From NCBI GenBank assembly GCA_964538225.1, contig CAZIDW010000005.1:1-35424 (forward strand): a DNA stretch of 35,424 nucleotides, read 5' to 3'. The position numbers and the translations under genes were made by a program. The notes under the pieces are model-generated. The model saw nothing but the letters and a program-made list of their open reading frames with translations. It did no database searches and was not told the DNA's origin. Of this stretch, positions 12,112 to 35,118 are shown piece after piece. Source of the stretch: an uncultured Candidatus Peribacteria bacterium. Lineage in GTDB: Bacteria > Patescibacteriota > Gracilibacteria > UM-FILTER-43-11. Every line of letters starts with the position of its first letter. Position 1 is the first letter of the stretch.

Positions 12112-13221
12112 ATGGAAGCGATTTATTTATCTGAATCACCGGAAGCCACCATTCGTTTAGGTGAAAAACTCGCCCACCGCTTACAAGGCGGCGATACTGT
12201 TTTGCTTTTTGGTGATTTGGGGCTGGGGAAGACTCATTTTATTAAAGGGATTGCAAAGGGATTGGGTATTGAGATGACGATTAAAAGCCCTACCTATGCG
12301 TATGTGAACCAATACCCGATAGAGGGCCCAATCAAAAGCCCAATCGATCGCAATTCAGGTTCACAATCTATTGGGTCCTCCATGAGTCCTCCACTGGTTT
12401 TTTATCATTACGACCTTTATCGTTTCAGCGAGGGAAACGATTTGTCGTCAATCGGTTACGATGAAAGCCTGGGTAATCCGACTGCCATCAACGCGGTGGA
12501 GTGGGCAGACCGGCTGGGCGGCCATCTGCCACGTACTTATGTCAAAGTCGGACTGGAAGGAGGCGCGGAGGCGCGCAAGATCTCCATCGAATTCATCGAC
12601 CCCCGTATCCCCACTAAGCTCACTATCCACCAGTTATATGATGAATGGGCGACCCCCCAGCATGTGCGCGCGCATATTAAACAGGTCACACACGTGGCTA
12701 TTCAATTGGCGCAGGCGTTTATCGAGCAGGGCGAGATCATCAACGTAAACCTCTTATACGCCGCTTCTATGCTCCACGATATCAGCCGGGTGTGTGATTT
12801 CAGCAGTCTGGACCGCAACCAGTTTAAAGAGGAGGTAACGGATGAGAAATGGAAAAAATGGCAGGCCTGCCGCCGGGATTACAAAGGGATGCATCACGCG
12901 GATATTGCCTTTGACCAGTTCACCAAACTCGGTTTTTCAGAGGTGGCGGAGGTCGTCCGCCTGCACAAGTCACTGAATATCGTCGATGAACCGGATTCTT
13001 ATGACACCTTAGAAAAAAAGATTCTTTATTACGCGGACAAGCGCGTGAAGCACGATGAAATCGTGGATTTAGACGAACGGTTCCGGGATGGGCGGGAGCG
13101 GTATGGAAAATACGATGATCGGCAGACACGGGAACGGTTTGAACAGGTCGAGAAAAAAACGCGCCAACTGGAAAAGGAGTTATTTAAGGGGCTGAAGATC
13201 GGGCCGAAGGACATAAAGTAA
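12112..13221 (+). CDS. tsaE: tRNA t6A37 biosynthesis ATPase TsaE fused to a C-terminal HD-domain phosphohydrolase
   Basis: The N-terminal TsaE motifs are the P-loop GDLGLGKTHF, SPTYAYV and HYDLYR. The C-terminal half carries H...HD...HH...D (MLHDISR, HHADIAF, YYADKRV), like YqeK-type HD hydrolases. A ~22-aa repeat-derived insertion lies between SPTY and HYDLYR. Confidence 0.85.
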   Translation: MEAIYLSESPEATIRLGEKLAHRLQGGDTVLLFGDLGLGKTHFIKGIAKGLGIEMTIKSPTYAYVNQYPIEGPIKSPIDRNSGSQSIGSSMSPPLVFYHYDLYRFSEGNDLSSIGYDESLGNPTAINAVEWADRLGGHLPRTYVKVGLEGGAEARKISIEFIDPRIPTKLTIHQLYDEWATPQHVRAHIKQVTHVAIQLAQAFIEQGEIINVNLLYAASMLHDISRVCDFSSLDRNQFKEEVTDEKWKKWQACRRDYKGMHHADIAFDQFTKLGFSEVAEVVRLHKSLNIVDEPDSYDTLEKKILYYADKRVKHDEIVDLDERFRDGRERYGKYDDRQTRERFEQVEKKTRQLEKELFKGLKIGPKDIK

Positions 13222-23998: not shown

Positions 23999-24625
23999 CT
24001 ATTGTTGGAGCTTGTTTTGATCGATGGTCCCATTTTGGACTAGGATGGCCAAGAGGTAATCGAAGTCCTGTGCCAGCCTTTCGTCGGCTTCGCGGTTGGC
24101 CGCAAGCCGCTTGTGCAGCCAGTAAGCGATACCGGCCGTCGAACCTAAACAAATGAGGCTGACCAGAAGGATGATGACCACCGTCCAGATCAGGCTGGAC
24201 TGCTTTTCCTCGAACTCGGCGGCCGTCAGGACCACAGGCTCGTCCGGGTCGGGATGATGGTGGTCGACCCGCGCCTTCAGCTTGCCGAAGGCGCCCTCCT
24301 CGCTTATAAAGGCTTCCATCTCTTCCTTGGTAATGAAGTGGGTGCTCTCTTCCTTGGTGATGAAGTGGGTGTTGTTATTCGTGGGGGGGTCCTTTTTGGG
24401 TTCGGGTTTCTTGGGGGAAGCCCTATGCCTCCGCTTGGGGACAGGCTTGGCGGGAATCTTACCATGGTTGCAGATTTCGTCATGCTGAGCTTGGCTGATC
24501 AGACCACTGGACTGATCCATTTTTGCCTGCGTACACGGATCGACCGTTTGGGCGCCGGCGACAGCCAGCAGAAAGGTCAGAAAGGTGACAAGGAAAAAGA
24601 CAAAGATAATTCCGTACCGTTTCAT
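23999..24625 (-). CDS. island gene G: type-I membrane protein, unknown function
   Basis: The signal peptide is MKRYGIIFVFFLVTFLTFLLAVAGA. It has a basic Pro/Lys stretch, a tandem 9-aa repeat THFITKEES/THFITKEEM (27-nt repeat at 24321-24371) and the TM segment LIWTVVIILLVSLICLGSTAGIAYWL. A strong SD precedes it (GAAGGAG, 7 nt before the ATG). Confidence 0.7.
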   Translation of the reverse strand: MKRYGIIFVFFLVTFLTFLLAVAGAQTVDPCTQAKMDQSSGLISQAQHDEICNHGKIPAKPVPKRRHRASPKKPEPKKDPPTNNNTHFITKEESTHFITKEEMEAFISEEGAFGKLKARVDHHHPDPDEPVVLTAAEFEEKQSSLIWTVVIILLVSLICLGSTAGIAYWLHKRLAANREADERLAQDFDYLLAILVQNGTIDQNKLQQ

Positions 24626-24785
24626 GATTCAACTCCTTCTCCCCGAGGGGAATCCGAGATTACGTGTTCGTAAAGAGGGTACCTGACGAGCAGTACCCCT
24701 CATCTTTTTATTTGAAAGCAAGTTGTACAACACTCGCCATGTGACTCTTTACGAACGCCCAGTGGTTTAAAAGAACAGATTTGCC

Positions 24786-25646
24786 TTAAGCCGTTTTTTT
24801 AATGGTTTCCGCGCCCCTTCCTTTCATACTTTTTTCGCTAGCCTGTTTCGCTGGCAGCTCGGCCATATTAGATGCTGTTTCAGTCGCCGCGACCTCCTGT
24901 TTCGCGGTTTTAACGCAATTCAGTGTACGGTCGATGCCGCTGCGGACATTTTTTACCGATTTTTGGATGCCGCGGGGGTAAGCCATTAGTCCGTTGCCAA
25001 TGTTTTCAGCCACAGGTTTAGCGGGTTTTGCCAACTCGATTGACGGCCTGCCCACCATCCTTACTGGAGTGGCGGCGATGCTGAATGGCAGCGAAATTGT
25101 GTTACCGAAAGCCCTCACTGGCTGGCCGCTTTTAACATTTTTTACGATTTTTCCAACTCTGGAACGGGTTTTTGATATACCATTTTTCAAGCCGAGCCAC
25201 ATATTTTTAGGGATTCTGATGACATTGCCTGGTGTTTTGAACACGCCTTTGATTACATCGCGGAAATTATGGACCAGATTTTTCTGAATGCAGATCAGGG
25301 GGGCTTTGACCAGTTCTTTCATGCCGCCGTAGATCGATCCTTTAAACACGCCGGCAGCCGCTTCGCGCGTGGCTTTTATCGGCATCTTGAATTTATCCAG
25401 TACTCTGGGTATGTATTTTGTCCCCAGGCTCAGGGGTTTTGTAATAGGCCATAAAACTATTCTCGCGGGAAAAGTGACCCATTTAAAACCTTTCCACAAT
25501 CCCCTGCCAAGCACTTTAAGGCCCGACCCGCTCGCTTTTGCGACTGCTTTGGCTTTTTCCGCGGCCATGCGGGGCATGCGTTTTTCTTTCACGAAACTGG
25601 TGTGAAAGTCATTGTTGTGCCAAAGGGTGGTTGTATTATGGAACAT
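24786..25646 (-). CDS. island gene F: highly basic Lys/Gly/Pro-rich protein, unknown function
   Basis: The 286-aa ORF contains recurring K-x-[VI]-K-x-G-like units (IKGVFKTPGNVIRIPKN, GKIVKNVKSGQPVR, IQKSVKNVRSGIDR). The start is uncertain and the ATG at 25577 (MPRMAAEKAKA) is an alternative. Confidence 0.6.
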   Translation of the reverse strand: MFHNTTTLWHNNDFHTSFVKEKRMPRMAAEKAKAVAKASGSGLKVLGRGLWKGFKWVTFPARIVLWPITKPLSLGTKYIPRVLDKFKMPIKATREAAAGVFKGSIYGGMKELVKAPLICIQKNLVHNFRDVIKGVFKTPGNVIRIPKNMWLGLKNGISKTRSRVGKIVKNVKSGQPVRAFGNTISLPFSIAATPVRMVGRPSIELAKPAKPVAENIGNGLMAYPRGIQKSVKNVRSGIDRTLNCVKTAKQEVAATETASNMAELPAKQASEKSMKGRGAETIKKTA

Positions 25647-25662
25647 GGTTTATGGCTGATTA

Positions 25663-26901
25663 TTAAGCCTGTTGGAAAAGATTATTTAAATCAAAGCGGT
25701 CTTTCAGCGCGCGGTACACTTCCTGGATTTTATCGCTGATTTCCTGTTCGTTTTCCAAACCGAAGGTTTCGCGCATTAGTTGTTCCGGATTGTCGACTTC
25801 CGGGGTATTTTTAAGAGCCAGTAACATAATGCCTAAGGAATCTTCCGGGAATACTGCGTCAATATCTAACCCCAGTTGCTGTAATTCCTCCGTATCGGGC
25901 TGTTCTTTAAAAATCCGGATTAATTCATCTGTGTACTGTTTCGCCCTTTGGGCTTCAGTATCGTTTGTTGTCTCAGCCACCTGATTTACGCCTGTTGCAG
26001 GTATAGGGTTTTGTGTCGCTGTTTCATCTAATGCATCACCGATTGCCGGTCGCGTTATTTTTACCTGTTGGGACATTTGGCTTAATATGCTTTCGATGTC
26101 ATTTTCATCGAATCGGCGCGGCTCTTTGCCGGGATTGTATTCAGGCAGTCTTAATTCTTCCGCCCATTCGATTTGCGCGTACACACTGCACGATTGTTTT
26201 TCCACGTAGATTCGATGACCGATTTTAGACATCAGATTTAAAATTTTATTGCCGTATTTTTCGATGTAATCCATCAGCTCATCAAACGGCTCCATCACAT
26301 CAGCCAGTTTTTTCAGATGCTGTCTCATGGTCGCTTCATCGTCATCGTTCCGGATTTTAAATATTTTGCTGAACAGTATATTAGTCGCCGTTACTTTCCT
26401 TGTGGTGAGACTGCGGATGTCGTTCCGCGTTACGTTTTTTCCGATCACAGCAATCATAATCGCTCTCAGCAGATTTTTTAGATTTTCCTCATCCAGCCCC
26501 AAATATTTCAGTAGGTTCCGGTTCTCATTGGGCTCCCGGACATGGTTTTTTAACAGTTCGATCAATGTCCGGACCGTGGCTACAGCCAAAGGCTGTTCCT
26601 TACAGATCTCTTTAAAGCGTTTGAAATTATCCGATTCAGGCTGTGTCGCAGACAAGGTCTGCGGGGCCCTTTCCGCTGTCGTTTGTGCCGGAACCGGCTC
26701 ATTGCCCTTAATATCTGCGTCAGGCCGGCTGTTTTCAGGGGTCTGTTGAGGCTCCTTGGGCTTAAGCTGGCTTTGCAGCCTGTCCCGCAGGGTATTTTGC
26801 GTAGCGGCGCCCGATTCCCTTTGCTTGATGGTCTCCTGGACACGCTCAGCTAAAGGCTTTCGGATACGCTCATTGACTGATTTTTTTCTAAAGATGGCCA
26901 T
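25663..26901 (-). CDS. island gene E: soluble acidic protein, unknown function
   Basis: The 412-aa ORF has a disordered Gln/Pro/Thr-rich N-terminal ~95 aa followed by helical-looking regions. It has no TM segment and no motif I recognise. Confidence 0.7.
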   Translation of the reverse strand: MAIFRKKSVNERIRKPLAERVQETIKQRESGAATQNTLRDRLQSQLKPKEPQQTPENSRPDADIKGNEPVPAQTTAERAPQTLSATQPESDNFKRFKEICKEQPLAVATVRTLIELLKNHVREPNENRNLLKYLGLDEENLKNLLRAIMIAVIGKNVTRNDIRSLTTRKVTATNILFSKIFKIRNDDDEATMRQHLKKLADVMEPFDELMDYIEKYGNKILNLMSKIGHRIYVEKQSCSVYAQIEWAEELRLPEYNPGKEPRRFDENDIESILSQMSQQVKITRPAIGDALDETATQNPIPATGVNQVAETTNDTEAQRAKQYTDELIRIFKEQPDTEELQQLGLDIDAVFPEDSLGIMLLALKNTPEVDNPEQLMRETFGLENEQEISDKIQEVYRALKDRFDLNNLFQQA

Positions 26902-26950
26902 TGTTTTAAAATTAAAAAGTAGAGATTAAAAGATAAAAATTTTAGGGGAT

Positions 26951-26982
26951 GGCGCGCCTCGTCGTGGTCGACGAGGCGCGCC
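26951..26982 (-). terminator. perfect 14-bp GC hairpin exactly 14 nt after the stop of island gene D
   Basis: GGCGCGCCTCGTCG-tggt-CGACGAGGCGCGCC. On the minus strand it is followed by AUCCCCUAAAAUUUUUAUCUUUU. Confidence 0.6.
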
Positions 26983-26996
26983 CGGTTGTCCGTTCA

Positions 26997-27656
26997 CTAG
27001 CCGTATTCGTCCAGGTCCAGCGCGTCGGTCAGACTGTCTGGCGCAGGGGTTGCTGGTAGCGTTGCGGGCCGCCTATAGCCGCAGCCTGCGGTGCAGGTCT
27101 TCGGCCCCAGGTAACCTCCGCAGTTCGGACAGGTCGAGGCGGGATCTGAGGGAGCCGTCGCGGGGGGCGGCGCTGTCGGCGCACCGGGCTGGGCTGGGGG
27201 AGTGGGAGCGGAACCTGCTTCCGGCGGCTTTTTGGGCCAGTACCGGAGGGTCAGGAGTGCTTTCCACCCTTTCTTTTCCGCCAGGCTGGTGAGCTCTGGC
27301 GGCTGGAAGCGGATTACCCCGATTAACATCAAGGGGATGAGCCAGCCCAGAGATTCGTCGGCGCAATGGAAAAGCGCCAAGCTGAGCCCGTAGGCGACCA
27401 CGAACCAGAAGGGTATACCCTTTAGGGAGCGCGCCTTTTTTCCGGGCAGGCTGATGTAGTGATACACTAGGAGCGCGAGAAGCAGGAACGCCCAACTACC
27501 GGGCACCAGGTACTCTGACCAATGGTTGAGAAAGTACTCCTTTTTTGGCCAGAAGGTGGGATCCACCTGGTCGGCAATCATTTCGGCTTCATCGGTGCAG
27601 CCGGTGGAAAGGATGACAGCGACGAGCGCTGCCATCAGTTTCAGGAAACGCTTCAT
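26997..27656 (-). CDS. island gene D: lipoprotein-signal polytopic membrane protein with C-terminal zinc ribbon and acidic LDEYG tail
   Basis: The signal/lipobox is AVILSTGC and there are 3-4 hydrophobic segments. A Pro/Ala-rich linker leads to CPNCGGYLGPKTCTAGCGY (CxxC...CxxxC, about 27075-27131). The C-terminus is SLTDALDLDEYG. The SD is AAGGAGG, 5 nt before the ATG. Confidence 0.75.
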   Translation of the reverse strand: MKRFLKLMAALVAVILSTGCTDEAEMIADQVDPTFWPKKEYFLNHWSEYLVPGSWAFLLLALLVYHYISLPGKKARSLKGIPFWFVVAYGLSLALFHCADESLGWLIPLMLIGVIRFQPPELTSLAEKKGWKALLTLRYWPKKPPEAGSAPTPPAQPGAPTAPPPATAPSDPASTCPNCGGYLGPKTCTAGCGYRRPATLPATPAPDSLTDALDLDEYG

Positions 27657-27801
27657 AACTGCCTCCTTTTAAGGCTGGTCGTGAACGGATAACAGAGAAA
27701 GTTCTGCCTTTTTCATCCTTCTCCGTCAAGGCTTCGAAGGAGAAAAAGACAAGAGGGTCTCTGTTATCGTTTCTCGGAATTTTAAAGAACAAGGGAATAA
27801 A

Positions 27802-27830
27802 ATTTTATAATATTTTTTATATTTTGTCAA
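27802..27830 (-). promoter_or_regulatory. sigma70-type promoter of island gene D (TTGACA-17-TAAAAT)
   Basis: The minus strand reads ttgaca aaatataaaaaatatta taaaat. It predicts a ~135-nt leader. Confidence 0.65.
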
Positions 27831-27856
27831 TCTTTTCTTAAAGAAAGCTGGTGAAC

Positions 27857-27885
27857 GGCGGCCCGGGAGAGGTTCCCGGGCCGCC
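27857..27885 (-). terminator. perfect 12-bp GC hairpin exactly 14 nt after the stop of island gene C
   Basis: GGCGGCCCGGGA-gaggt-TCCCGGGCCGCC. On the minus strand it is followed by GUUCACCAGCUUUCUUU and then the gene D promoter. Confidence 0.55.
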
Positions 27886-27899
27886 TGGTTGCTGTGCGC

Positions 27900-28766
27900 T
27901 CAGGAGTATTCATCTAACTCAGGGAGATCGAGGGCTTCCTCCAGAGATAGGGAGGTGGGCGAATCGGCCTGCCTGGATGATGTTTCGCAGTTCCCGCAGA
28001 GGACGTAGCCAGGCGGGTTCAGGTACCCGCAGGCGGGGCAGCTGACCCAATTCCGCTGGTCCTGCTGGGTGGGCTGGCTGGTGTCGGCGGCGGTAGGGGT
28101 TATTGCAGGCTGTTTGCCTTCCGCCGCCTTTTTCTTGCCGAAACGAATGCGGCGCCAGATTCCCAGGATGGAATTCTTGGGCGCGTTTTTGACCCACCCC
28201 TTAGCCTTGTCCCCGCCGACCTTTTCGGCGATGAACAAAATCATCATGATACAGCCGACGGTGCCGGCGGGCACAAAAATACCCCACAGCCAGAGCGGCT
28301 TGCTGGTGAGGGTTTTGCCCCCGCAGATACCTGCTAGGGCGACGCAGCCCAAAGCGCCGACCGTTATTTCTCCGACAGACAGAGGATCCTTTTGGCCGGG
28401 CAGTTTTTTGTCCATGACCCCCCGCCACCATTTCCCCGCTTTTGCAATTGAGCCGAGGATAGGAATGGGCATAGGGAAATAGGACAGGATTACAGGGATG
28501 AGCCAAAATGGCTGGAATGGCGGGATTACCAAGTACGTGACCCAGGGGCCGACATATTGGCGAGTGACCTTGACGATGATTAGGATCCAGAAGACTCCGA
28601 CCGCAAAGGCCCACATCCAGGACTCCGCGGGGGTTATGGCGTTGGTGACGGTGGATGAAAACCAATTCCACGCCTTCATCATGATTCCAGTTAAACTGCC
28701 TGCCCAAGCGACCTTGGGCAGTAACAACACAATGAGCATCGATACTCCCAAAGTAAACTTGCGCAT
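27900..28766 (-). CDS. island gene C: signal-peptide polytopic membrane protein with C-terminal zinc ribbon and acidic LDEYS tail (paralogous architecture to D)
   Basis: The signal peptide is MRKFTLGVSMLIVLLLPKVAWA and there are about 5-6 hydrophobic segments. A basic stretch RRIRFGKKK leads to a low-complexity linker and CPACGYLNPPGYVLCGNC (about 27987-28040). The C-terminus is SLSLEEALDLPELDEYS. The SD is AGGAG, 7 nt before the ATG. Confidence 0.75.
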   Translation of the reverse strand: MRKFTLGVSMLIVLLLPKVAWAGSLTGIMMKAWNWFSSTVTNAITPAESWMWAFAVGVFWILIIVKVTRQYVGPWVTYLVIPPFQPFWLIPVILSYFPMPIPILGSIAKAGKWWRGVMDKKLPGQKDPLSVGEITVGALGCVALAGICGGKTLTSKPLWLWGIFVPAGTVGCIMMILFIAEKVGGDKAKGWVKNAPKNSILGIWRRIRFGKKKAAEGKQPAITPTAADTSQPTQQDQRNWVSCPACGYLNPPGYVLCGNCETSSRQADSPTSLSLEEALDLPELDEYS

Positions 28767-28985
28767 AGTCAGACTCCTTTCGTAACCTCCTCGCGGGAGG
28801 CGTTTTTTGGTTTAACGGTCGTATCTGATTACCGGATAATCAAATAAAACCGTTAAACCGGTTTGATTCTGAACGTACACAGCAAGGAAGAGATCTGCTG
28901 TCAATCACCTCCGTAGAGGGAGAAATGGACAGCAAATCCTTCCTCGCTACGAGTTGTTAAAGAACAAGGTTGAGTAAGAGTGTAT

Positions 28986-29014
28986 ATTGTACAATAAATT
29001 AAATTTTATGTCAA
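28986..29014 (-). promoter_or_regulatory. sigma70-type promoter of island gene C (TTGACA-17-TACAAT)
   Basis: The minus strand reads ttgaca taaaatttaatttattg tacaat. It predicts a ~210-nt leader. Confidence 0.7.
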
Positions 29015-29052
29015 TAGTATTTCAGAGATAAAATCCATTAACCGATTTATAC

Positions 29053-29077
29053 AAAAAAAAGAGCCGATAAACGACTC
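29053..29077 (-). terminator. rho-independent terminator of the 1569-aa gene
   Basis: The minus strand reads GAGUCG-uuuau-CGGCUC (one G.U pair) followed by U8 (A-run 29053-29060 on the plus strand). Confidence 0.6.
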
Positions 29078-29198
29078 CCCGAAAGGAAATAAGTAGTATA
29101 TTTAAATAATATACTTCTTGATTTATTTGTCAAGGGTCTAAGTCCTAGAATAAACAATCCTCTTAATTCAGAAATGGCTCAATTAAGACAAAATCCAC

Positions 29199-32100
29199 TT
29201 AGGGCCTATTGGCTTTTTGCCATTCATTATCCCAGCCGTCAGGACGCACATTGTAGTTATCTGTGTTTTGCCGCCCCCGGATGTGTCCAAGATATAAGTC
29301 TCCCTCTAATTTATTTTTTTCAAATAATTTTAGAGATTTATCATATGTCTCTGCGTTGGTTCTGTTTTTGTAGAACTGTGACATGGCTGTTCCGGGACTA
29401 CGGGCGCTTTCAAAATATTCATCCAGCCATTGTTTCTGTTCTTCGCTTAGTGATGTGTAACGTCGTATCCAGGCAATCGATCCGCTGTCGATGAACGGAA
29501 GGACATCCAATACATCGTGCGCAAAACCACCGGCCTTTCCAATCACATAAGAAGATGCCCGCACCCATTGCGAAAAGGCCAACAGCGCGTACCCGCCGAA
29601 TTTTTTAGTACCATAACTGTTTAAGCCGAAAGCCTCTTTCACATTTTCGTATAAGCCTTTTTTTGGGTCGATAATAAACGGCAGTCGGTCTTTGATTTCT
29701 GCGGCATTGTAATAATCCGGGAAGCGCCCCTTTTCCTTTAGGTAATATTCATGGCTGTCCGGCATGGGCATGCGGTAAAACGCGTAGATTTTAGACGGAG
29801 CTTTTTCGCCCGGCCCCCCTGTCTTTACCACGACATGGATGGTGTCCATGTATTTTTTCAAATCGGCTTTGGTTAGGTTCGGATGCTTGCTCACAAATTG
29901 TTCCATTGCCTGCTCGCGCATGGCTTTCTCCATTAAATTGTGGGCTTCGCCAACGGAATGGGTGTCTTTTACCCCTGCTTTTTCTTTGTCAACTGAAGTG
30001 AGAAGGTAGCCGATGCGGTAATCCGGGCTCCGTTCATTCTGCGTTTCCGTAAAATAAGCATTGCCGTTCGCGATGGCTTCCGGATTGCCGTTTGCCGCTC
30101 CGAAGGCGCTGGCGAACGGCCGCGTATAGTATCCCAAAAAACTAAATGTCTCACTCCCTCTTAATTCATCATCATCCTCCAGTTTCTGGCGATCAAGCTG
30201 GCTGTTTTGATCCAACAGTTCTCTGCCGACCACATCCCGCAACTCCAAATCGCGATGGATGGTCACCAGCTGGTCGCTCCTGAGCAGTTCTTTGACCTGG
30301 CGCAGTTTGGTGGTCGTCCATGGTATGGCGAATTTTGAGACCCCGTACAGCACTTCCAGCGGCAGGGTCACGCCTTCCACAGTCAATTGCCAGACATCAT
30401 CCACAAATTCAAGAATGACGGGTTTTTTGGCCTCGTACCAGATTTCAGCCCGGCGCCCCATAATCTTAACATTAGTAGTCGTTGAATCCACCAGCTCGCT
30501 CAATACTCTTTTGACCCATGGCACATAATGTGTGCCCAGGTTGTCGTAAAAATCTTTGCCGGCTTCAGTTACAGGTGAATAAATGTCGTAGCGGAATTTG
30601 GCGATTAGTTTATTGCTCGTTTCCTTGCCCCATTCCTTTGACCTTTCCAATAAGCTTTCTTTTTGCACGCGTTCCGCCTCGTAGCTGTCCATTTCCGCCT
30701 TCAGCACCACTTCCCAGGTCAAATCATCGGGATTATTGCGGAACTTTTTGATGATTATCTGTTGGATTTCCGTAAATTGGGCTTTTTCCAGGTCATAGTC
30801 CTTATCTGTAATGGCTTTTACCCACCGTTCGTTTAAGGCTTCCTTGCCCCAGTAGGCGTCTTTTTCCACCTTATCCCCCACATAGCCGAAGAAGTTTTCA
30901 ATGGTGCGTTTTACCACTTTAGCAGCCCGCATCTCCGGATCGTATTCTTTAAATTTAATGCCGCGCACAATATTGTATGCCTGGATCCGCCGGGGCAGTT
31001 TTACGTCTTCATGACCGGGCCGGGGCCGGCCGTCCGGCGTGGTGGCCTCGTACCATTCCATTAATTCAGCAAACGGCACATCGTTGAGCTCCTGCAGGGC
31101 GCGGGCGTGTTCGTCGTCGGAAATCTCGTTTTTTTCCATGTCCGCTGCCCCCTGTTCCAGCAGTACGGATTCATACGTGCCCTCCATGGATTCCGCGATG
31201 CCGGTGAGTTTGAACCGGTCCAGAAGCCCTTCGCCGGTCACGTGTTTAATGGTGAGTTCCGCGGCGCCGGCCATAAAAAGGACGCGCAGGAATTTGCCGG
31301 ATTTCCCTTCGCCTTTGTAGGCTTTTTTGGCCAGTTTCCAGGCCCCGATGAGCAGGGCCACGCCCGCGGCGCGGTTGGCAATGCTCTGCCCCGGGCCGAT
31401 GACCATGTCGATCACGCCTTTGGCGTAATCAGTGATCTTGTCCCCAAAAGTCATGCCGTCCAGTTTGGCGGCCAGTTCCGCTTTTCCCTCCGCGCGGGCC
31501 GCGTCGATTTTTTCGCGGTGTCGGATTTCGATTTCAATCATTTTCACAATATTCCGCGCAGTGATCTGGGCATTCCGTATCTTGGGGTCCGGGTCCAGTT
31601 CCGCGCCTTTAATGGTTTCCAGCACTTTCAGAAAATCTTCTTTGCCCTGGGCCACACCCGGTTTGGTCTCCGGCAGGATGTAATTGAACATCTTTACCAG
31701 TTTCTGCACGCCTTCTTCGCTGGCCAGCATGTGGTCCCATGCTTCTATTTTCATGCCCGGGTCCCCCTCTTTGTTTTCCGGGCTGATGTAGTCTTCGTAC
31801 CGGCCCTGCACGTATTCCATGCGCATCCCCAGCCGTTCCAGGTAATCCCAGCGGCTTTCCGGGTCGTAATCCAGCGTGCTGTAGGTTACATCGATATGCG
31901 CGAGGTCCTCTTCAAAGGATTTGATGAATTCCCTGTTGTTGACCCCGTAGATCTCATCGTAAAGGCTTTTCGTTTTTTTAAAAGTTTCGATGTAATCTGC
32001 GAATTGTTTGCGTGTCGGGTTTTTAACGCGCGCCAATTTGTGCGCCTCTTTGTATAAGCCTTGCCATTGTTGCAGGGTTTTTTTGTCGCGTTTAATCACC

Positions 32101-33908
32101 TTGCCGATGTTGTCCCGCGAGAGCGGGTTTCCATCCGGCCCGTAAACGTATTGGCTTAATTCCGCGATCATCGGGTCGATTTCTTTGTCCTCAGATTTTT
32201 CTTTAATCAATTCGCTGATTTCCTCCATGCGCCCGATGTTGTCCTCCAGCAGGCGCGCTTTTACCATGGCCAGGTTCGCGTAGCGGGCGAACAGCAGAAA
32301 GGTACGCTGGGGGGCCTGCAAAAACCGGCCTTCCACGGTGCGGTTGAAGTATTCGGACTGCGCCAAAGTCTCAAACATCCATTTATATTCATCGGTGATG
32401 TCACCTTCATATTCTTCTTTTCCTTCTTTATTGATCCGGTAGCGGCTGACCCCTTCGCGATAAATCGTGGCGACCAGCATGCGCCGGATGGCCGGGTGCA
32501 GGTCTTTGCCGAAATACCCGCCGTGTTCCCCGTACAGGTGGTCTACCGTTTCCATGGCTTTTTTGAACTTGCGCATGGCTAGTTCCATCAGGATCTGGCG
32601 GTTATTGGGCTTGCTCAGACTTTCCCGTGTGAAGGCTTGTCCTGCCTTTTCTTTGTCTTCTACGCGTTTGTGGTAATCCTGGGCCGCGTCAGCCAGTTTT
32701 TTGCACTTTTCCAGATCTTTTATCTTTTCCTGATAAATAGCGATGTTCAGATGGGTCTCCTTTTCTTTTTTAAGATTTTTTATTTTGATTTCAAAATCCA
32801 GCTGTATGTCTCCGATAGCTCCCCCTATTTCCCCGAAAGCCCGGCTTAAAGGCGGTGTCATCCGCACCTTGGCCGCCCGGTTTTCTATTCCGGTTGCCCC
32901 GCTGGTTTGGATGATCTCGTCGATACGCGCGGGAATGGCATCGCTTTTTGCCCGGGCCAGTGTTTCCTGTTCCGTGAGCTTTTCGTGAAAATGGCGTATA
33001 TCCTGTTCAGGGTCTTTGCCCCCCCAGTAGGTCAACCATTCATGATGAAGGAAGGGAAAATTCCTTTTGTTCTCCGCCGGATCGTTTTTAAAATTTTCAC
33101 CCAATACAAAGCTATTGGGGGCAAAATCATTGGTCTCGTACGCCAGGATCGACAGAAACAGCTGTTTGCTTTCACGCAGTTTTTGTTCGGATTCAATTCC
33201 CTCTGGCCCTTTCCAGAAGCTCTCAAAAAAACGGTCGCTCAAAAGCGGGCTTTCCACCGCCCGTTCAAAGGCTGCGACCGCGTTGTTGAATTCACGGCTT
33301 TCCTTAAATTCCTTACGCTTTCTCATGATTTCCCCCACCTTTTCGCCTTTATAGGTCAGGCGCTGGTGGCGCCGGTAAATCACGTCTGTTTTGGCCTTTT
33401 CCAGCTTTTTGAGAAGGGCTTCATGCTCCTCGATGGCTTTTACCAGTGATGCTAATTCCTTGGGCTGATTCCGTCTTTTTTCAAAGTATTTTTTAACCTC
33501 TTTAAACGGATGCCACTTTTTGCCGGTCTCGTCATCCTCGTAAAAGAACTCGGATTCCTGAATGGCTTTGGTGCGGTCTTTGGTAGCCCCCAAATCATCA
33601 AAATCCAGTTTAACGGCCTGCTCGTGGGGCCGTCTTTTTTTGGCGACGTCATCCCATTCCTCAAAATCTTCATCCGCGTATTTCTGGTTGTATGCTTTCT
33701 GGCTCGCCAGGAGTGTTTCCCGGCTTTCTTCCACCTTTTCTTTTTGCTTATCAACTTCCTCCTCCAGTTTTTTAATGGTCTCTTCTTTCAGGTCGGTCTC
33801 AATGCCGGCTTCTGTTTCCAGGCGGAATTCCCTAAAGACCGGCTGGTTTACCCATAAGCCGAAATCACTGTTTTCAGAACGATGGTGGCTCCAGGCGGTC
33901 AAAGGCAT
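29199..33908 (-). CDS. island gene B: 1569-aa protein of unknown function with central hydrophobic hairpin
   Basis: It is a single uninterrupted ORF, mostly charged and helical-looking. It has no signal peptide, HExxH or Walker A motif. The only hydrophobic stretch is central (GVIDMVIGPGQSIANRAAGVALLIGAWKLAKKAYKGEGKSGKFLRVLFMAGAAELTI, about nt 31250-31440). Confidence 0.85.
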   Translation of the reverse strand: MPLTAWSHHRSENSDFGLWVNQPVFREFRLETEAGIETDLKEETIKKLEEEVDKQKEKVEESRETLLASQKAYNQKYADEDFEEWDDVAKKRRPHEQAVKLDFDDLGATKDRTKAIQESEFFYEDDETGKKWHPFKEVKKYFEKRRNQPKELASLVKAIEEHEALLKKLEKAKTDVIYRRHQRLTYKGEKVGEIMRKRKEFKESREFNNAVAAFERAVESPLLSDRFFESFWKGPEGIESEQKLRESKQLFLSILAYETNDFAPNSFVLGENFKNDPAENKRNFPFLHHEWLTYWGGKDPEQDIRHFHEKLTEQETLARAKSDAIPARIDEIIQTSGATGIENRAAKVRMTPPLSRAFGEIGGAIGDIQLDFEIKIKNLKKEKETHLNIAIYQEKIKDLEKCKKLADAAQDYHKRVEDKEKAGQAFTRESLSKPNNRQILMELAMRKFKKAMETVDHLYGEHGGYFGKDLHPAIRRMLVATIYREGVSRYRINKEGKEEYEGDITDEYKWMFETLAQSEYFNRTVEGRFLQAPQRTFLLFARYANLAMVKARLLEDNIGRMEEISELIKEKSEDKEIDPMIAELSQYVYGPDGNPLSRDNIGKVIKRDKKTLQQWQGLYKEAHKLARVKNPTRKQFADYIETFKKTKSLYDEIYGVNNREFIKSFEEDLAHIDVTYSTLDYDPESRWDYLERLGMRMEYVQGRYEDYISPENKEGDPGMKIEAWDHMLASEEGVQKLVKMFNYILPETKPGVAQGKEDFLKVLETIKGAELDPDPKIRNAQITARNIVKMIEIEIRHREKIDAARAEGKAELAAKLDGMTFGDKITDYAKGVIDMVIGPGQSIANRAAGVALLIGAWKLAKKAYKGEGKSGKFLRVLFMAGAAELTIKHVTGEGLLDRFKLTGIAESMEGTYESVLLEQGAADMEKNEISDDEHARALQELNDVPFAELMEWYEATTPDGRPRPGHEDVKLPRRIQAYNIVRGIKFKEYDPEMRAAKVVKRTIENFFGYVGDKVEKDAYWGKEALNERWVKAITDKDYDLEKAQFTEIQQIIIKKFRNNPDDLTWEVVLKAEMDSYEAERVQKESLLERSKEWGKETSNKLIAKFRYDIYSPVTEAGKDFYDNLGTHYVPWVKRVLSELVDSTTTNVKIMGRRAEIWYEAKKPVILEFVDDVWQLTVEGVTLPLEVLYGVSKFAIPWTTTKLRQVKELLRSDQLVTIHRDLELRDVVGRELLDQNSQLDRQKLEDDDELRGSETFSFLGYYTRPFASAFGAANGNPEAIANGNAYFTETQNERSPDYRIGYLLTSVDKEKAGVKDTHSVGEAHNLMEKAMREQAMEQFVSKHPNLTKADLKKYMDTIHVVVKTGGPGEKAPSKIYAFYRMPMPDSHEYYLKEKGRFPDYYNAAEIKDRLPFIIDPKKGLYENVKEAFGLNSYGTKKFGGYALLAFSQWVRASSYVIGKAGGFAHDVLDVLPFIDSGSIAWIRRYTSLSEEQKQWLDEYFESARSPGTAMSQFYKNRTNAETYDKSLKLFEKNKLEGDLYLGHIRGRQNTDNYNVRPDGWDNEWQKANRP

Positions 33909-34016: not shown

Positions 34017-35060
34017 TTATTCATCTTTCTTTTTGGCGGACTGGCGCCTTTTCTGCCGTTCAGCAATGGCGTTCTGGTAGCCTTCCGGCACCGCCCAGAT
34101 TACAAATCCTACCCCTTCTCGGCGTCCCGTATTTTCCATTAGATATCCTTCTTTCGATACGCTTAATATGGTTCGGAAAGAACGGTAAGTGGGCACTTTG
34201 ATGATAAAAACGCCCGGATTGTACTTATTGGTTACTACATGGAATTGCATAGTTTTTTCTGGCTCCTGCCCTTCCATAATCATCTGTAAGTTTTTATTCA
34301 TTTCCTCGCGCGAGCGGGGGTGTTGTTCTAAAAGTCTCAGAAATTCTCCGTATCCGGTATTGACGTTACTGTCTTCCGCATCAGGATTGAGTTCGCCTCT
34401 TAGTTGAATTAGCTTGGCCAGTCGATGGGGCAGTTTAATACGGTAGGTGTCATAAATGCCCTGGTCGCGGTCTTTTTTTCCGCGGATCCGATTCCTCCGG
34501 TTGGCAAAGATTTTGCGGTTGACCTTGGGGATTGTCTTGTCAAATTTGTCCCAGTCTAGCCATCCAAGGGGGTTCAGTTCTACCCCGTTTACCTTCACGA
34601 TTTGACCGAACTGGATGCGTATCAAAAAATGCTCAGGAATGTGTACAGCATCATCCCGACGCGTGATATTAAAAACACCCGATGCTTCTTCGCGGTAATG
34701 CAGTTCTTCCGGATGTTGAATAGCCAATTCCAACACTTCGTCTACCTTTTCTTGTTTTTCACTCCTTTCGATATACAGTAAAAAAGAAGGATTGAGATAA
34801 AAACGATAAAGCGTTTCTTGGCAATTTTGAAGCAATTCCAATTCCTCCGGGCCGAATTCAATGGGCGTGCGGTACTGGTCCCGTTCGCGCTGGCATGAGA
34901 TATTCAGATAGCACGGGGGCACGTCCGCTTTTGCTTCCCCAAACGGGCTGACGATTTTTAAAATCGCCGCGGCCACGGCGCCGCGCAGGAGCGCGCGCCG
35001 GCTGACGACCGGATTTCGGGGTTTTTCGCCTTCAGATTGATCGGGTTTATTCACACTCAT
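34017..35060 (-). CDS. island gene A: Tat-signal secreted protein, unknown function
   Basis: It has a twin-arginine signal VVSRRALLRGAVAAAILKIVSPFGEAKA. I moved the start to the ATG at 35060 (MSVNKPDQ...) because the track ATG at 35099 lies between the -35 and -10 of the promoter below. Confidence 0.72.
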   Translation of the reverse strand: MSVNKPDQSEGEKPRNPVVSRRALLRGAVAAAILKIVSPFGEAKADVPPCYLNISCQRERDQYRTPIEFGPEELELLQNCQETLYRFYLNPSFLLYIERSEKQEKVDEVLELAIQHPEELHYREEASGVFNITRRDDAVHIPEHFLIRIQFGQIVKVNGVELNPLGWLDWDKFDKTIPKVNRKIFANRRNRIRGKKDRDQGIYDTYRIKLPHRLAKLIQLRGELNPDAEDSNVNTGYGEFLRLLEQHPRSREEMNKNLQMIMEGQEPEKTMQFHVVTNKYNPGVFIIKVPTYRSFRTILSVSKEGYLMENTGRREGVGFVIWAVPEGYQNAIAERQKRRQSAKKKDE

Positions 35061-35090
35061 AAAATGGTCATAGGTTATGGAGTGAATTTT

Positions 35091-35118
35091 ATTATACATT
35101 ATAAATATATTTTGTCAA
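35091..35118 (-). promoter_or_regulatory. consensus sigma70-type promoter of island gene A (TTGACA-16-TATAAT)
   Basis: The minus strand reads ttgaca aaatatatttataatg tataat. The -10 element is at 35096-35091. Confidence 0.7.

What the first reader, a model, noticed from the sequence alone, without database searches (positions are those of the whole stretch)
26997..28766. Paralogous membrane proteins ending in a zinc ribbon plus a conserved acidic ...ALDL..LDEY[GS] C-terminal tail
Genes D and C share the same layout:
- a signal peptide, then a polytopic hydrophobic core;
- a basic juxtamembrane stretch and a low-complexity Pro/Ala/Thr/Gln linker;
- a 4-Cys zinc ribbon (CPNCGG...CTAGC in D, CPACGY...CGNC in C);
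- a ~25-aa tail ending SLTDALDLDEYG (D) or SLSLEEALDLPELDEYS (C).

The extreme C-terminus, with its penultimate Tyr in an acidic context, is conserved while the linkers are not. That suggests a short linear docking motif for a partner protein. I do not know a described family with this tail.
Basis: partly seen in the sequence, partly recalled or inferred. Interest (0 to 1): 0.7.

Follow-up and report, generated by a model that had tools for sequence, protein, structure and literature searches.

The report
Co-varying docking tails on two membrane proteins
Two neighbouring membrane proteins in a rare, unannotated Patescibacteria gene cluster each end in a flexible linker, a four-cysteine zinc ribbon and a short terminal peptide; that peptide always matches between the two proteins but comes in three different versions across lineages, which fits a shared docking site for one co-evolving partner, though binding is not shown.

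Summary
C (27900-28766, -) and D (26997-27656, -) both have a signal peptide, a hydrophobic core, a basic stretch, a Pro/Ala/Thr/Gln linker, an invariant 4-Cys ribbon and an ...ALDL..DEY tail. No other ORF in the held DNA carries the tail.

Only the last ~80 residues of C and D are detectably homologous (hhalign 93.7%). The membrane cores are not. The genes also share a related structured 5' leader and a similar 3' layout.

The family is tiny: about six lineages, in syntenic clusters without any annotation.

The acidic Tyr tail is not family-wide:
- Window and L003: ALDL..DE[YF].
- L001: ALD[LM]LWR[KR]..
- L010: S[KR]FRERN[KR]F.
- L013: the C homologue has no ribbon.

In every genome where both tails are known, they match each other. 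Tail codons differ at synonymous sites in three of four lineages, so the peptide is under selection.

The central domain of neighbour E (residues ~93-260) is the only tested segment that co-varies with tail type, in both divergence and net charge.

Best reading: a shared cytoplasmic docking peptide, with E as the leading partner candidate. This is inferred from four lineages, not demonstrated. Interest is moderate.

The parts
27900..28766 (-). Gene C: 288-aa membrane protein. Signal-like N-terminus, four hydrophobic segments, then a C-terminal basic stretch, linker, ribbon and tail.
   Evidence: ORF. Hydropathy. Orthologues at 70% and 57% identity in syntenic loci. Remote homologues P0011, P0012 and P0013.
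27987..28040 (-). Zinc ribbon of C (aa 243-260): CPACGYLNPPGYVLCGNC, i.e. CxxC-x10-CxxC.
   Evidence: All four Cys are invariant in five lineages and absent only in P0012. Sub-threshold Pfam hits: DUF7577 at E = 2.5e-4, plus DZR and Zn_ribbon_3.
27903..27947 (-). Tail of C (aa 274-288): SLEEALDLPELDEYS, a type-1 acidic/aromatic tail.
28041..28214 (-). C juxtamembrane basic stretch (aa 185-213) and variable P/A/T/Q linker (aa 214-242).
   Evidence: 11 K+R in the 40 residues after the last hydrophobic segment. The linker is poorly conserved. AF2 pLDDT is ~30 in the linker and tail.
26997..27656 (-). Gene D: 219-aa membrane protein. Lipoprotein-like signal with Cys20, three hydrophobic segments, then a C-terminal basic stretch, linker, ribbon and tail.
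   Evidence: ORF. Hydropathy and charge bookkeeping give N-out/C-in. Orthologues. L010 homologue at E = 2e-8 over the full length.
27069..27131 (-). Zinc ribbon of D (aa 176-196): CPNCGGYLGPKTCTAGCGYRR, i.e. CxxC-x8-CxxxC.
   Evidence: All four Cys and the CGY[KR]R motif are conserved in four lineages. Weak hit to Ribosomal_L32p, a zinc-ribbon protein.
27000..27038 (-). Tail of D (aa 207-219): DSLTDALDLDEYG, type 1.
26122..26625 (-). Central helical domain of neighbour E (aa ~93-260 of the 412-aa protein at 25663-26901). Candidate receptor of the tails.
   Evidence: It is the only cluster segment where L001 is the outlier: identity 0.28-0.60 against 0.72-0.88 for window vs L003. Net charge is +4/+3 in acidic-tail genomes and -6/-11 in basic-tail genomes. 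It holds the only 3 of 56 windows with a clean complementary charge separation.
27857..27885 (-). GC-rich 12-bp hairpin downstream of C, preceded by a GCACAGCAAC motif. Probably a terminator or stabiliser.
   Evidence: Fold z = -4.3.
26951..26982 (-). GC-rich 14-bp hairpin downstream of D, preceded by GGACAAC.
   Evidence: Fold z = -6.4.
27657..27830 (-). Promoter-like site (TTGACA-17-TAAAAT, 27830-27802) and structured 5' leader of D (27657-27795). The leader starts with TGTTCTTTAA.
   Evidence: Promoter. Conserved in five lineages with 33 pairs, 8 of them compensatory. Fold z = -4.1, with the SD inside a hairpin.
28767..29014 (-). Promoter-like site (TTGACA-17-TACAAT, 29014-28986) and structured 5' leader of C (28767-28970), with the same TGTTCTTTAA motif. 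In the consensus fold the motif pairs with the SD.
   Evidence: Fold z = -8.1. The D-leader covariance model detects it at E = 5e-5.

Best explanation
C and D are two membrane proteins of an orphan Patescibacteria gene cluster (X-Y-A-B-C-D-E-F-G).

Each carries a C-terminal extension, most likely cytoplasmic, with this layout: a basic juxtamembrane stretch, a variable and probably disordered linker, a Cys4 zinc ribbon, a short spacer, and a 10-15-residue terminal peptide.

The terminal peptide is proposed to be a docking motif, probably a short amphipathic helix. Through it both membrane proteins would recruit the same soluble partner to the membrane.

The interface evolves fast and in concert:
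- Three tail versions exist: ALDL..DE[YF], ALD[LM]LWR[KR].., and S[KR]FRERN[KR]F.
- C and D of one genome always carry the same version.

The leading partner candidate is the central helical domain of E, the gene immediately downstream of D. It diverges with tail type and shifts its net charge in the opposite direction.

What is shown: the architecture, the homology of the C-terminal modules, within-genome tail concordance, and selection on the peptide.

What is inferred: cytoplasmic location of C's module, docking itself, and the identity of the partner.

The confidence given (0.5) is for the shared-docking-peptide reading. That E specifically is the partner I put at about 0.3.
For: 1. The C-terminal modules of C and D are homologous (hhalign 93.7%).

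2. D's topology is clear: signal peptide plus three TM segments, an acidic N-tail, and 4 K+R in loop 1, giving C-in. C has 11 K+R in the 40 residues after its last hydrophobic segment.

3. Tail concordance holds in four lineages:
- Within-genome C-vs-D tail scores are 31, 33, 47 and 41, against shuffle means of 15-17.
- Scores between different tail types are 5-27 (sequences).

4. The variant tails are reproduced in independent assemblies:
- L001 = L002 = L006 = L007.
- L010 = L011 = L012.

5. The peptide is under selection:
- At identical tail residues the codon is the same in only 2/7 (window), 1/6 (L003) and 2/7 (L001) cases.
- DNA similarity between the C and D 3' ends is not significant in the window or L003.
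- Even so, L-x-x-A-L-D-[LM] is invariant in six proteins whose linkers do not align.

6. The motif occurs only on C and D.

7. E's central domain co-varies with tail type:
- It is the only L001-outlier segment in the cluster.
- Its net charge is +4/+3 where the tails are -5/-6, and -6/-11 where they are +2 to +4.
- It holds the only 3 of 56 windows with a clean complementary separation across C, D, E, the F N-terminus and the B C-terminus.
Against: - No binding or complex model was obtained.
- AF2 models of E (pLDDT 37) and C (pLDDT 50) are unusable.
- Only four lineages have both tails known. That gives two or three independent tail changes, so the E correlation has very low statistical power.
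- A control protein, the anti-sigma factor, also shows one segment with a charge shift of similar size in the three-genome comparison.
- The cluster is mosaic, and each lineage has accelerated segments.
- The N-terminal half of B, plus A, X and Y, are not available for the L001 and L010 lineages. They cannot be excluded as the partner.
- In L001 and L010 the 3' ends of C and D are similar at DNA level beyond the stop codon (scores 21 and 24 against a null of ~10 +/- 1.4). Gene conversion therefore contributes to the concordance.
- By simple counting (signal peptide plus four segments) C's C-terminus would lie outside. Its topology rests on the positive-inside rule and on analogy with D.
- P0012 shows that the C core can exist without the ribbon.
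Confidence: 0.5

Rival explanations
1. The tails are a shared docking motif, but the partner is not E. It would be the 1569-aa giant protein B, or A, or the upstream X/Y proteins. E's co-variation would then be coincidental lineage-specific acceleration.
For: - B is the best-conserved cluster member and sits directly upstream of C in every lineage.
- B shows L001-specific charge shifts at residues 1261-1360.
- More than half of B, and all of A, X and Y, are unavailable for the L001 and L010 lineages and so are untested.
- The cluster is mosaic, so one accelerated segment coinciding with a tail switch is not improbable.
Against: - In the part of B that can be compared (residues 547-1569), no segment has L001 as the identity outlier.
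- The last 72 residues of B show no charge separation across four lineages.
- E's central domain satisfies both criteria, and its charge pattern repeats in L010.
Confidence: 0.2
2. The tail concordance is produced mainly by gene conversion between the 3' ends of two adjacent, same-strand genes that share a stop-GACAAC-hairpin layout. The tail would have no specific partner, and the matching would be a by-product of recombination.
For: - DNA similarity between the C and D 3' ends is 8-10 SD above shuffles in L001 and L010, and it runs past the stop codon.
- All nine 3' regions share the stop, (G)GACAA[CG], GC-hairpin layout, which offers flanking homology.
- 5 of 7 identical tail residues in L010 use the same codon.
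Against: - In the window and L003 the DNA similarity is not significant (12 against ~10 +/- 1.5), and synonymous sites mostly differ. The peptide core is still identical in C and D and between species, while the adjacent linkers diverge completely. That is purifying selection on the peptide.
- The ribbons immediately upstream keep distinct C-type and D-type sequences in all lineages. Any conversion tract would have to be confined to ~30-45 nt.
- Conversion explains how a new tail spreads between the genes. It does not explain why the tail is retained.
Confidence: 0.12
3. The tail acts in cis or on the membrane rather than on a separate partner. It could pack against its own zinc ribbon or juxtamembrane basic stretch as an autoinhibitory element. 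The W/F plus K/R versions could bind the anionic membrane surface.
For: - The tail lies only 10-25 residues after the ribbon, on a flexible spacer.
- Acidic type-1 tails could pair with the strongly basic juxtamembrane stretch.
- Types 2 and 3 (LWRKR, FRERNKF) resemble interfacial membrane-binding peptides. This is an inference from composition.
Against: - The juxtamembrane stretches and ribbons stay essentially unchanged when the tail flips from -5 to +2 in L001. There is no compensating charge window in C or D.
- Acidic type-1 tails would not bind an anionic membrane, so no single cis or membrane mechanism covers all three types.
Confidence: 0.1
4. The tail is a recognition tag for a general cellular machine, such as a C-terminal degron for a protease or a sorting or processing signal, rather than a cluster-specific interaction.
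For: C-terminal peptides on flexible linkers are typical degrons. This rests on established knowledge of ssrA/ClpXP-type tags. No direct evidence was found here.
Against: - The motif is found only on C and D in all held DNA.
- It changes charge and sequence completely between close lineages. A conserved housekeeping recogniser would not tolerate that.
- It resembles no known bacterial degron such as ..LAA (own knowledge).
Confidence: 0.05

Closest known systems
FtsZ C-terminal linker plus conserved C-terminal peptide, which binds FtsA, ZipA and other partners (own knowledge; the paper index was unavailable)
   Same: A variable, disordered linker ends in a short conserved peptide that tethers a soluble component to membrane proteins. 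The linker is free to vary while the peptide is constrained.
   Different: - The polarity is reversed: here the membrane proteins carry the peptide.
- A zinc ribbon is embedded in the linker.
- The peptide is not conserved family-wide. It switches among three versions in concert on two proteins.
- There is no sequence relationship.
SSB intrinsically disordered linker plus acidic tip (..DDDIPF), a hub docking motif (own knowledge)
   Same: An acidic C-terminal peptide with an aromatic residue at or near the end, on a Pro/Gly/Gln-rich low-complexity linker.
   Different: - In SSB the aromatic residue is the last one, and its free carboxylate is recognised. Here 0-2 residues follow it.
- Two lineages have basic tails instead.
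- The SSB tip is nearly universal, whereas this tail is lineage-variable.
CLIP-170 C-terminal zinc knuckles followed by an acidic-aromatic ETF/EEY-type end, bound by CAP-Gly domains (own knowledge)
   Same: A small Cys-rich zinc module immediately precedes an acidic-aromatic C-terminus, and together they may form a bipartite docking unit.
   Different: - CLIP-170 is eukaryotic and cytosolic.
- No CAP-Gly domain is detectable in any cluster protein.
- The knuckle type differs.
- The tail is not conserved across the family.
SecA C-terminal tail: flexible linker plus a small metal-binding domain that docks SecB and ribosomes (own knowledge)
   Same: A flexible linker ends in a tiny zinc-binding module that serves as a docking element at the membrane-cytoplasm interface.
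   Different: - The SecA motif is CxCxSGx8C[H/C], which is absent here.
- SecA's zinc domain is itself the terminus, with no further tail.
- There is no homology.
Generic zinc-ribbon Pfam families (DUF7577 PF24463, DZR PF12773, Zn_ribbon_3 PF13248, Zn_Ribbon_1 PF13240)
   Same: The CxxC-x10-CxxC spacing and the ..NP.gY..C..C.. pattern of the C ribbon resemble these families. The best hit is DUF7577 at E = 2.5e-4.
   Different: - All hits fall below the gathering thresholds (21 bits against 28).
- D's ribbon has a CxxxC second knuckle and matches none of them.
- These families say nothing about the membrane core or the tail.

Membership tests
Zinc-ribbon fold (Pfam DZR / Zn_ribbon / DUF7577 type) | Two Cys-x2-Cys knuckles about 8-15 residues apart | tested here: met
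   C has CxxC-x10-CxxC. D has CxxC-x8-CxxxC, so its second knuckle is one residue longer. All Cys are invariant in every ribbon-bearing homologue.
Zinc-ribbon fold (Pfam DZR / Zn_ribbon / DUF7577 type) | Score at or above the Pfam gathering threshold | tested here: not met
   C scores 21.0 bits against DUF7577 (cut-off 28) and 15.2 against DZR (cut-off 27.3). D matches only Ribosomal_L32p at 14.6 bits (cut-off 21.3).
Zinc-ribbon fold (Pfam DZR / Zn_ribbon / DUF7577 type) | Zn(II) coordination by the four Cys | not testable with these tools
   This needs metal analysis of the purified C-terminal fragment.
C-terminal short linear docking motif on a disordered linker (FtsZ-CTC / SSB-tip kind) | A linker variable in length and sequence, of low complexity, and predicted to be disordered | tested here: met
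   The linkers cannot be aligned and vary in length. AF2 pLDDT is ~30 for residues 210-237 and 261-288 of C. The model is weak overall.
C-terminal short linear docking motif on a disordered linker (FtsZ-CTC / SSB-tip kind) | A terminal peptide conserved under selection | tested here: met
   L-x-x-A-L-D-[LM] is invariant in six proteins although synonymous codons differ. This holds only within a tail type. Three types exist.
C-terminal short linear docking motif on a disordered linker (FtsZ-CTC / SSB-tip kind) | An identified partner that binds the peptide | tested here: inconclusive
   E's central domain co-varies with tail type in divergence and in charge. Only four lineages are available and no complex model or assay exists.
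Carboxylate-anchored acidic-aromatic C-termini (SSB ..IPF; EEY/F bound by CAP-Gly) | The aromatic residue is the very last residue, with its free carboxylate recognised | tested here: not met
   The aromatic residue is followed by 0 (L003 C), 1 (window C and D) or 2 (L003 D) residues.
Carboxylate-anchored acidic-aromatic C-termini (SSB ..IPF; EEY/F bound by CAP-Gly) | A CAP-Gly or other known reader domain encoded nearby | tested here: not met
   No Pfam domain above threshold in A, B, E, F, G, X or Y, or in the B homologues.
Bacterial lipoprotein (for D) | A lipobox with an invariant Cys at the signal-peptide cleavage site | tested here: inconclusive
   The window has ..ILSTG|C, L003 has ..TLTS|C (canonical), and L001 has ..LTTN|C (poor -1 residue). 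The Cys is conserved in these three. The L010 homologue has an AWA|Q signal without the Cys. An LspA gene is present in the window.
SecA-type C-terminal metal-binding domain | The CxCxSGx8C[H/C] motif at the extreme C-terminus | tested here: not met
   The motif is absent from both sequences.

The most novel reading that the evidence does not exclude
The C/D tails and the central domain of E would form a rapidly co-diversifying specificity interface, with at least three mutually exclusive 'types'. It would sit inside an otherwise conserved and entirely uncharacterised membrane-cytoplasm machine of Patescibacteria, built around a ~1,570-aa giant protein. New tail types would spread between the two membrane anchors by short-tract gene conversion. 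The anchors, and the third membrane protein G, would be translationally co-regulated by a previously undescribed structured leader RNA that sequesters the Shine-Dalgarno sequence. Such fast, concerted interface turnover would suggest conflict-driven evolution, for example escape from a phage or host factor that hijacks the tail.
Probability: 0.2. Interest if true: 0.65.

Novelty: new variant of a known kind. Interest (0 to 1): 0.42.

Why it matters
If correct, this is a compact natural example of a short linear docking motif carried by two different membrane proteins. The motif switches type in concert with its receptor, which makes it a ready-made system for studying how peptide-domain specificity co-evolves.

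It also gives the first functional handle on a seven-to-nine-gene cluster of Patescibacteria 'dark matter' in which no protein has any annotation. That handle is who touches whom.

The scope is narrow. About six lineages carry the cluster among ~15 billion proteins searched, and nothing links it to a known process yet. The shared structured leader of C and D, and possibly G, is an additional candidate for a new cis-regulatory RNA.

Tried and rejected
**Annotation.** Pfam, NCBIfam, PADLOC and PHROGs scans of A-G and of the upstream X/Y proteins, the B homologues and the L010 proteins found nothing above threshold.

**Solved structures.** PDB sequence and profile searches with B, a B profile, an E profile and F found nothing.

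**Structure prediction.**
- E alone gave pLDDT 37.
- C with six sequences gave pLDDT 50.
- Both models are too poor, so no fold search was run.

**More loci.**
- Word-indexed searches with C, D and B returned only the same three genomes, plus two distant B homologues.
- The metagenome scan with D gave only a duplicate of the L001 lineage.
- The GTDB scan with the B C-terminus gave only L001's genome.
- IMG/VR scans with B and E found nothing, so there is no sign of a viral origin.

**Frameshift or assembly artefact as the origin of the L001 tails.** Rejected:
- Both genes change in the same way with different codons.
- The tails are reproduced in independent assemblies.
- No type-1 motif appears in the alternative frames.

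**Recent gene conversion in the window.** Rejected.

**Known RNA family for the hairpins or leaders.** Rejected. Rfam gave nothing at gathering thresholds and only spurious miRNA-hairpin hits in permissive mode.

**Literature.** Two searches returned irrelevant papers. Three later searches timed out. One was rejected for syntax.
Full report
**Context.** The window is a bacterial chromosome segment.
- Up to ~23.8 kb it carries housekeeping genes: a beta-CASP RNase, GAPDH, PRPP synthetase, CysRS, FtsW, MurG, LspA, GuaA, and an ECF sigma factor with a DUF5667/FecR anti-sigma factor.
- A minus-strand block follows: A (34017-35099), B (29199-33908, 1569 aa), C (27900-28766), D (26997-27656), E (25663-26901), F (24786-25646) and G (23999-24625).
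- None of these seven has a hit above threshold in Pfam, NCBIfam, PADLOC or PHROGs.
- The closest relatives are labelled 'Patescibacteria group bacterium'.

**The observation.** Both ORFs and every listed feature are present at the stated coordinates.
- C has a signal-like N-terminus (..AWA|GS) and four hydrophobic segments. It then has 11 K+R within 40 residues, a P/A/T/Q linker, the ribbon CPACG-x9-CGNC, and the tail SLEEALDLPELDEYS.
- D has a lipoprotein-like signal (..LSTGC) and three hydrophobic segments. It then has a basic stretch, a linker, the ribbon CPNCG-x7-CTAGC, and the tail DSLTDALDLDEYG.
- The similarity is real but confined to the last ~80 residues (BLASTP E = 1e-4; hhalign 93.7%, E = 2e-7). 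The membrane cores are not detectably related.
- The last 14 residues of C and D score 31 against a shuffle mean of 17 (p = 0.007).
- No other ORF in the window or in any fetched locus carries such a tail.
- D's topology is unambiguous by hydropathy and the positive-inside rule: N-out, three TM segments, C-in.
- C's topology is ambiguous by segment counting. The strongly basic post-TM stretch and the homology with D's module favour a cytoplasmic C-terminus.

**How wide the family is.** It is very narrow.
- Word-indexed searches of 5.8 billion protein clusters with C and with D returned only two other lineages. These are L001 (GCA_018817125.1) and L003/L004 (GCA_004196315.1), both with B-C-D-E-F-G synteny.
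- Metagenome and GTDB scans added only duplicates.
- An exhaustive HMMER search of 1.84 billion representatives with a C profile found three further real homologues. P0011 is on L010, which carries the end of B, C, D, E and the start of F. P0012 is on L013. P0013 is on L014.
- The L014 C homologue is frameshifted and is cut by the contig end before the tail.
- B has two more distant homologues at 33-35% identity. One of them is followed by a membrane protein with neither ribbon nor tail.

**The tail is not family-wide, but it is always shared by C and D.**

| Lineage | C tail | D tail |
|---|---|---|
| Window | ..SLEEALDLPELDEYS | ..SLTDALDLDEYG |
| L003 | ..TLEEALDLEEY | ..NLADALDLDEFGS |
| L001 | ..NIEKALDMLWRKR | ..NLESALDLLWRRKNR |
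| L010 | ..AAQSKFRERNKF | ..KPASRFRERNRF |
| L013 | ..SMDPKNDY (no ribbon) | not on the contig |

- Within-genome C-vs-D tail scores are 31-47. Scores between different types are 5-27.
- The variant tails are not artefacts. L001's are reproduced in a JGI and a Logan assembly, and L010's in two further assemblies.
- The ribbons keep distinct C-type (..NP.gY..C..C) and D-type (..C...CGY[KR]R) sequences in all lineages. The concerted behaviour is therefore limited to the terminal peptide.

**Selection versus gene conversion.**
- In the window, L003 and L001, identical tail residues mostly use different codons (same codon in 2/7, 1/6 and 2/7 cases).
- In the window and L003, DNA similarity between the two 3' ends is no better than shuffles.
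- The core L-x-x-A-L-D-[LM] is nevertheless invariant in six proteins whose neighbouring linkers do not align. This indicates purifying selection on the peptide.
- In L001 and L010 the 3' ends are similar at DNA level (8-10 SD above shuffles), and the similarity runs past the stop codon.
- All nine C/D 3' regions share the layout stop, (G)GACAA[CG], GC-rich hairpin (hairpin z = -4.3 and -6.4).
- Short-tract gene conversion is therefore a plausible vehicle for spreading a new tail type from one gene to the other. It does not explain why the tail is retained.

**A candidate partner.**
- Flanking genes and B, C and D place the window closer to L001 than to L003. E and F reverse this.
- Sliding-window identities show that residues ~100-260 of E are the only cluster segment where L001 is the outlier. 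Window vs L003 is 0.72-0.88, window vs L001 is 0.30-0.60, and L001 vs L003 is 0.28-0.55. The tails show the same pattern.
- The net charge of this domain is +4 (window) and +3 (L003), where the tails are -5/-6.
- It is -6 (L001) and -11 (L010), where the tails are +2 to +4.
- Across 56 sixty-residue windows over C, D, E, the F N-terminus and the B C-terminus in four lineages, only three show a clean complementary separation. All three lie in E's central domain.
- E's C-terminal domain is conserved in all four lineages, which fits an adaptor with one constant and one variable face.
- Caveats: only four lineages; a mosaic cluster; one control segment with a charge shift of similar size; and no data on the B N-terminal half, A, X or Y in the L001 and L010 lineages.

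**Mechanism proposed.** C and D act as membrane anchors. Their cytoplasmic, flexibly tethered ribbon-plus-tail modules dock one soluble component, and E is the best candidate. The terminal peptide probably binds as an amphipathic helix, with hydrophobic positions at i, i+3, i+4 and i+7. A charged aromatic cap would set the specificity. The docking step, the helical binding mode and the partner's identity are all inferences.

**Comparison with known systems** (own knowledge; the paper index failed).
- The layout works like the FtsZ linker plus C-terminal peptide, or the SSB linker plus acidic tip.
- The zinc module followed by an acidic-aromatic end recalls CLIP-170.
- The SecA C-terminal tail is another flexible-linker zinc docking module.
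- Membership in any of these families fails. The aromatic residue is not terminal, no reader domain such as CAP-Gly is encoded nearby, the SecA motif is absent, and the ribbons score below the Pfam thresholds.

**A by-product: structured 5' leaders.**
- The intergenic regions are more conserved than the proteins. The B-C spacer has 90% mean column identity. The C-D spacer reaches 77% even with distant L010 included.
- Each spacer holds a near-consensus promoter followed by a long leader that begins TGTTCTTTAA. A one-mismatch copy of the motif also precedes G.
- The leaders fold far better than shuffles (z = -8.1, -4.1 and -3.3).
- They keep long helices with compensatory changes: 8 of 33 pairs in the D leader and 14 of 67 in the C leader.
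- They occlude the Shine-Dalgarno sequence. In the C leader's consensus fold it pairs with the 5' motif.
- A covariance model built from the D leaders detects the C leaders in five lineages at E = 5e-5 to 3e-3, with L010 weaker at E = 0.11. It detects the G leaders only marginally.
- Rfam has no match.
- C and D therefore look like whole-gene paralogues with diverged cores, and they are probably co-regulated at translation.

**Verdict.**
- The docking-motif interpretation is partly supported and needs refining. It is not a conserved acidic Tyr tail but a concertedly switching shared tail.
- It is a new variant of a known kind, in a very rare orphan family.
- Interest is moderate.

Noticed in passing
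window 27657-27795 (-), 28767-28970 (-), 24626-24785 (-); L001, L003, L010, L013 and L014 equivalents: Long, highly conserved, strongly structured 5' leaders precede the three membrane-protein genes C, D and G. Each begins with TG[TC]TC[TC]TT[TA]A and has its Shine-Dalgarno inside a helix. A model built from the D leaders detects the C leaders (E = 5e-5 to 3e-3). Rfam has no match. This is a candidate new cis-regulatory leader RNA.
   Followed up: partly
window 28767-29198 (-): The B-C intergenic DNA has 90% mean column identity among three genomes whose proteins are only 57-78% identical. It contains a second near-consensus promoter-like site (29133-29106) followed ~25 nt later by a hairpin plus T-run (29080-29058). 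This could be B's terminator or a tiny ~50-nt transcript.
   Followed up: no
window 27857-27885 and 26951-26982 (-); all C/D 3' regions in L001, L003, L010 and L013: Every C and D gene is followed by the same layout: stop codon, a (G)GACAA[CG] motif, then a perfect 12-14-bp GC-rich hairpin with only a weak T-tract. The stems differ in sequence between C and D but are conserved between genomes.
   Followed up: partly
cluster-wide: window 23999-33908 vs L001 and L003: The phylogenetic signal is mosaic. C core and D linker: window resembles L001. C C-terminal half, E N-terminus, F C-terminal half and G N-terminus: L001 resembles L003. E centre: window resembles L003. This suggests recombination among lineages or strongly heterogeneous rates.
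   Followed up: partly
L003 7762-8418 and 8524-9180: Gene G (signal peptide, His-rich ectodomain, one TM segment, cytoplasmic tail) is tandemly duplicated in the L003 lineage, with near-identical copies.
   Followed up: no
L014 9520-10357: The C homologue in GCA_016927155.1 is split by a frameshift between its third and fourth hydrophobic segments. It could be a pseudogene or an assembly error. This locus also shows that the cluster extends upstream: X (>=922 aa), Y (114 aa), A, B, as in L004.
   Followed up: no
window 27930-27960 (-): The +1 frame of the codons for ..SLSLEEA.. in C reads ..YLWRKP.., and L003 C gives ..PWKKP*. This resembles the LWRKR end of the L001 tails. L-E-E-A codons (CTG GAR GAR GCC) shifted by one base give W-[KR]-[KR]-P. 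The same does not hold for D, and L001 keeps the ALD core upstream, so it may be coincidence.
   Followed up: partly
window 35091-35118 (-): A perfect 12/12 sigma-70 consensus (TTGACA-16-TATAAT) overlaps the first ATG of the 360-aa ORF A. The L004 orthologue aligns only from residue 14, so A probably starts further downstream, possibly on a very short leader.
   Followed up: no
window 29199-33908 (-), B residues ~810-900: The most conserved stretch of the 1569-aa orphan protein B across five lineages is ..GMTFGDKI..GPGQS.ANRAAG.ALL....KLA.KAYKGEGK.G..LRVLF.AGA.ELAIKHVTGEGLLDR... It is a hydrophobic, Gly-rich hairpin-like segment and possibly a membrane-interacting element. No family or solved structure matches.
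   Followed up: no
window 12112-13221 (+): A 369-aa ORF combines an N-terminal TsaE domain (E = 1e-29) with a sub-threshold HD-domain match in its C-terminal half. This is an unusual fusion.
   Followed up: no
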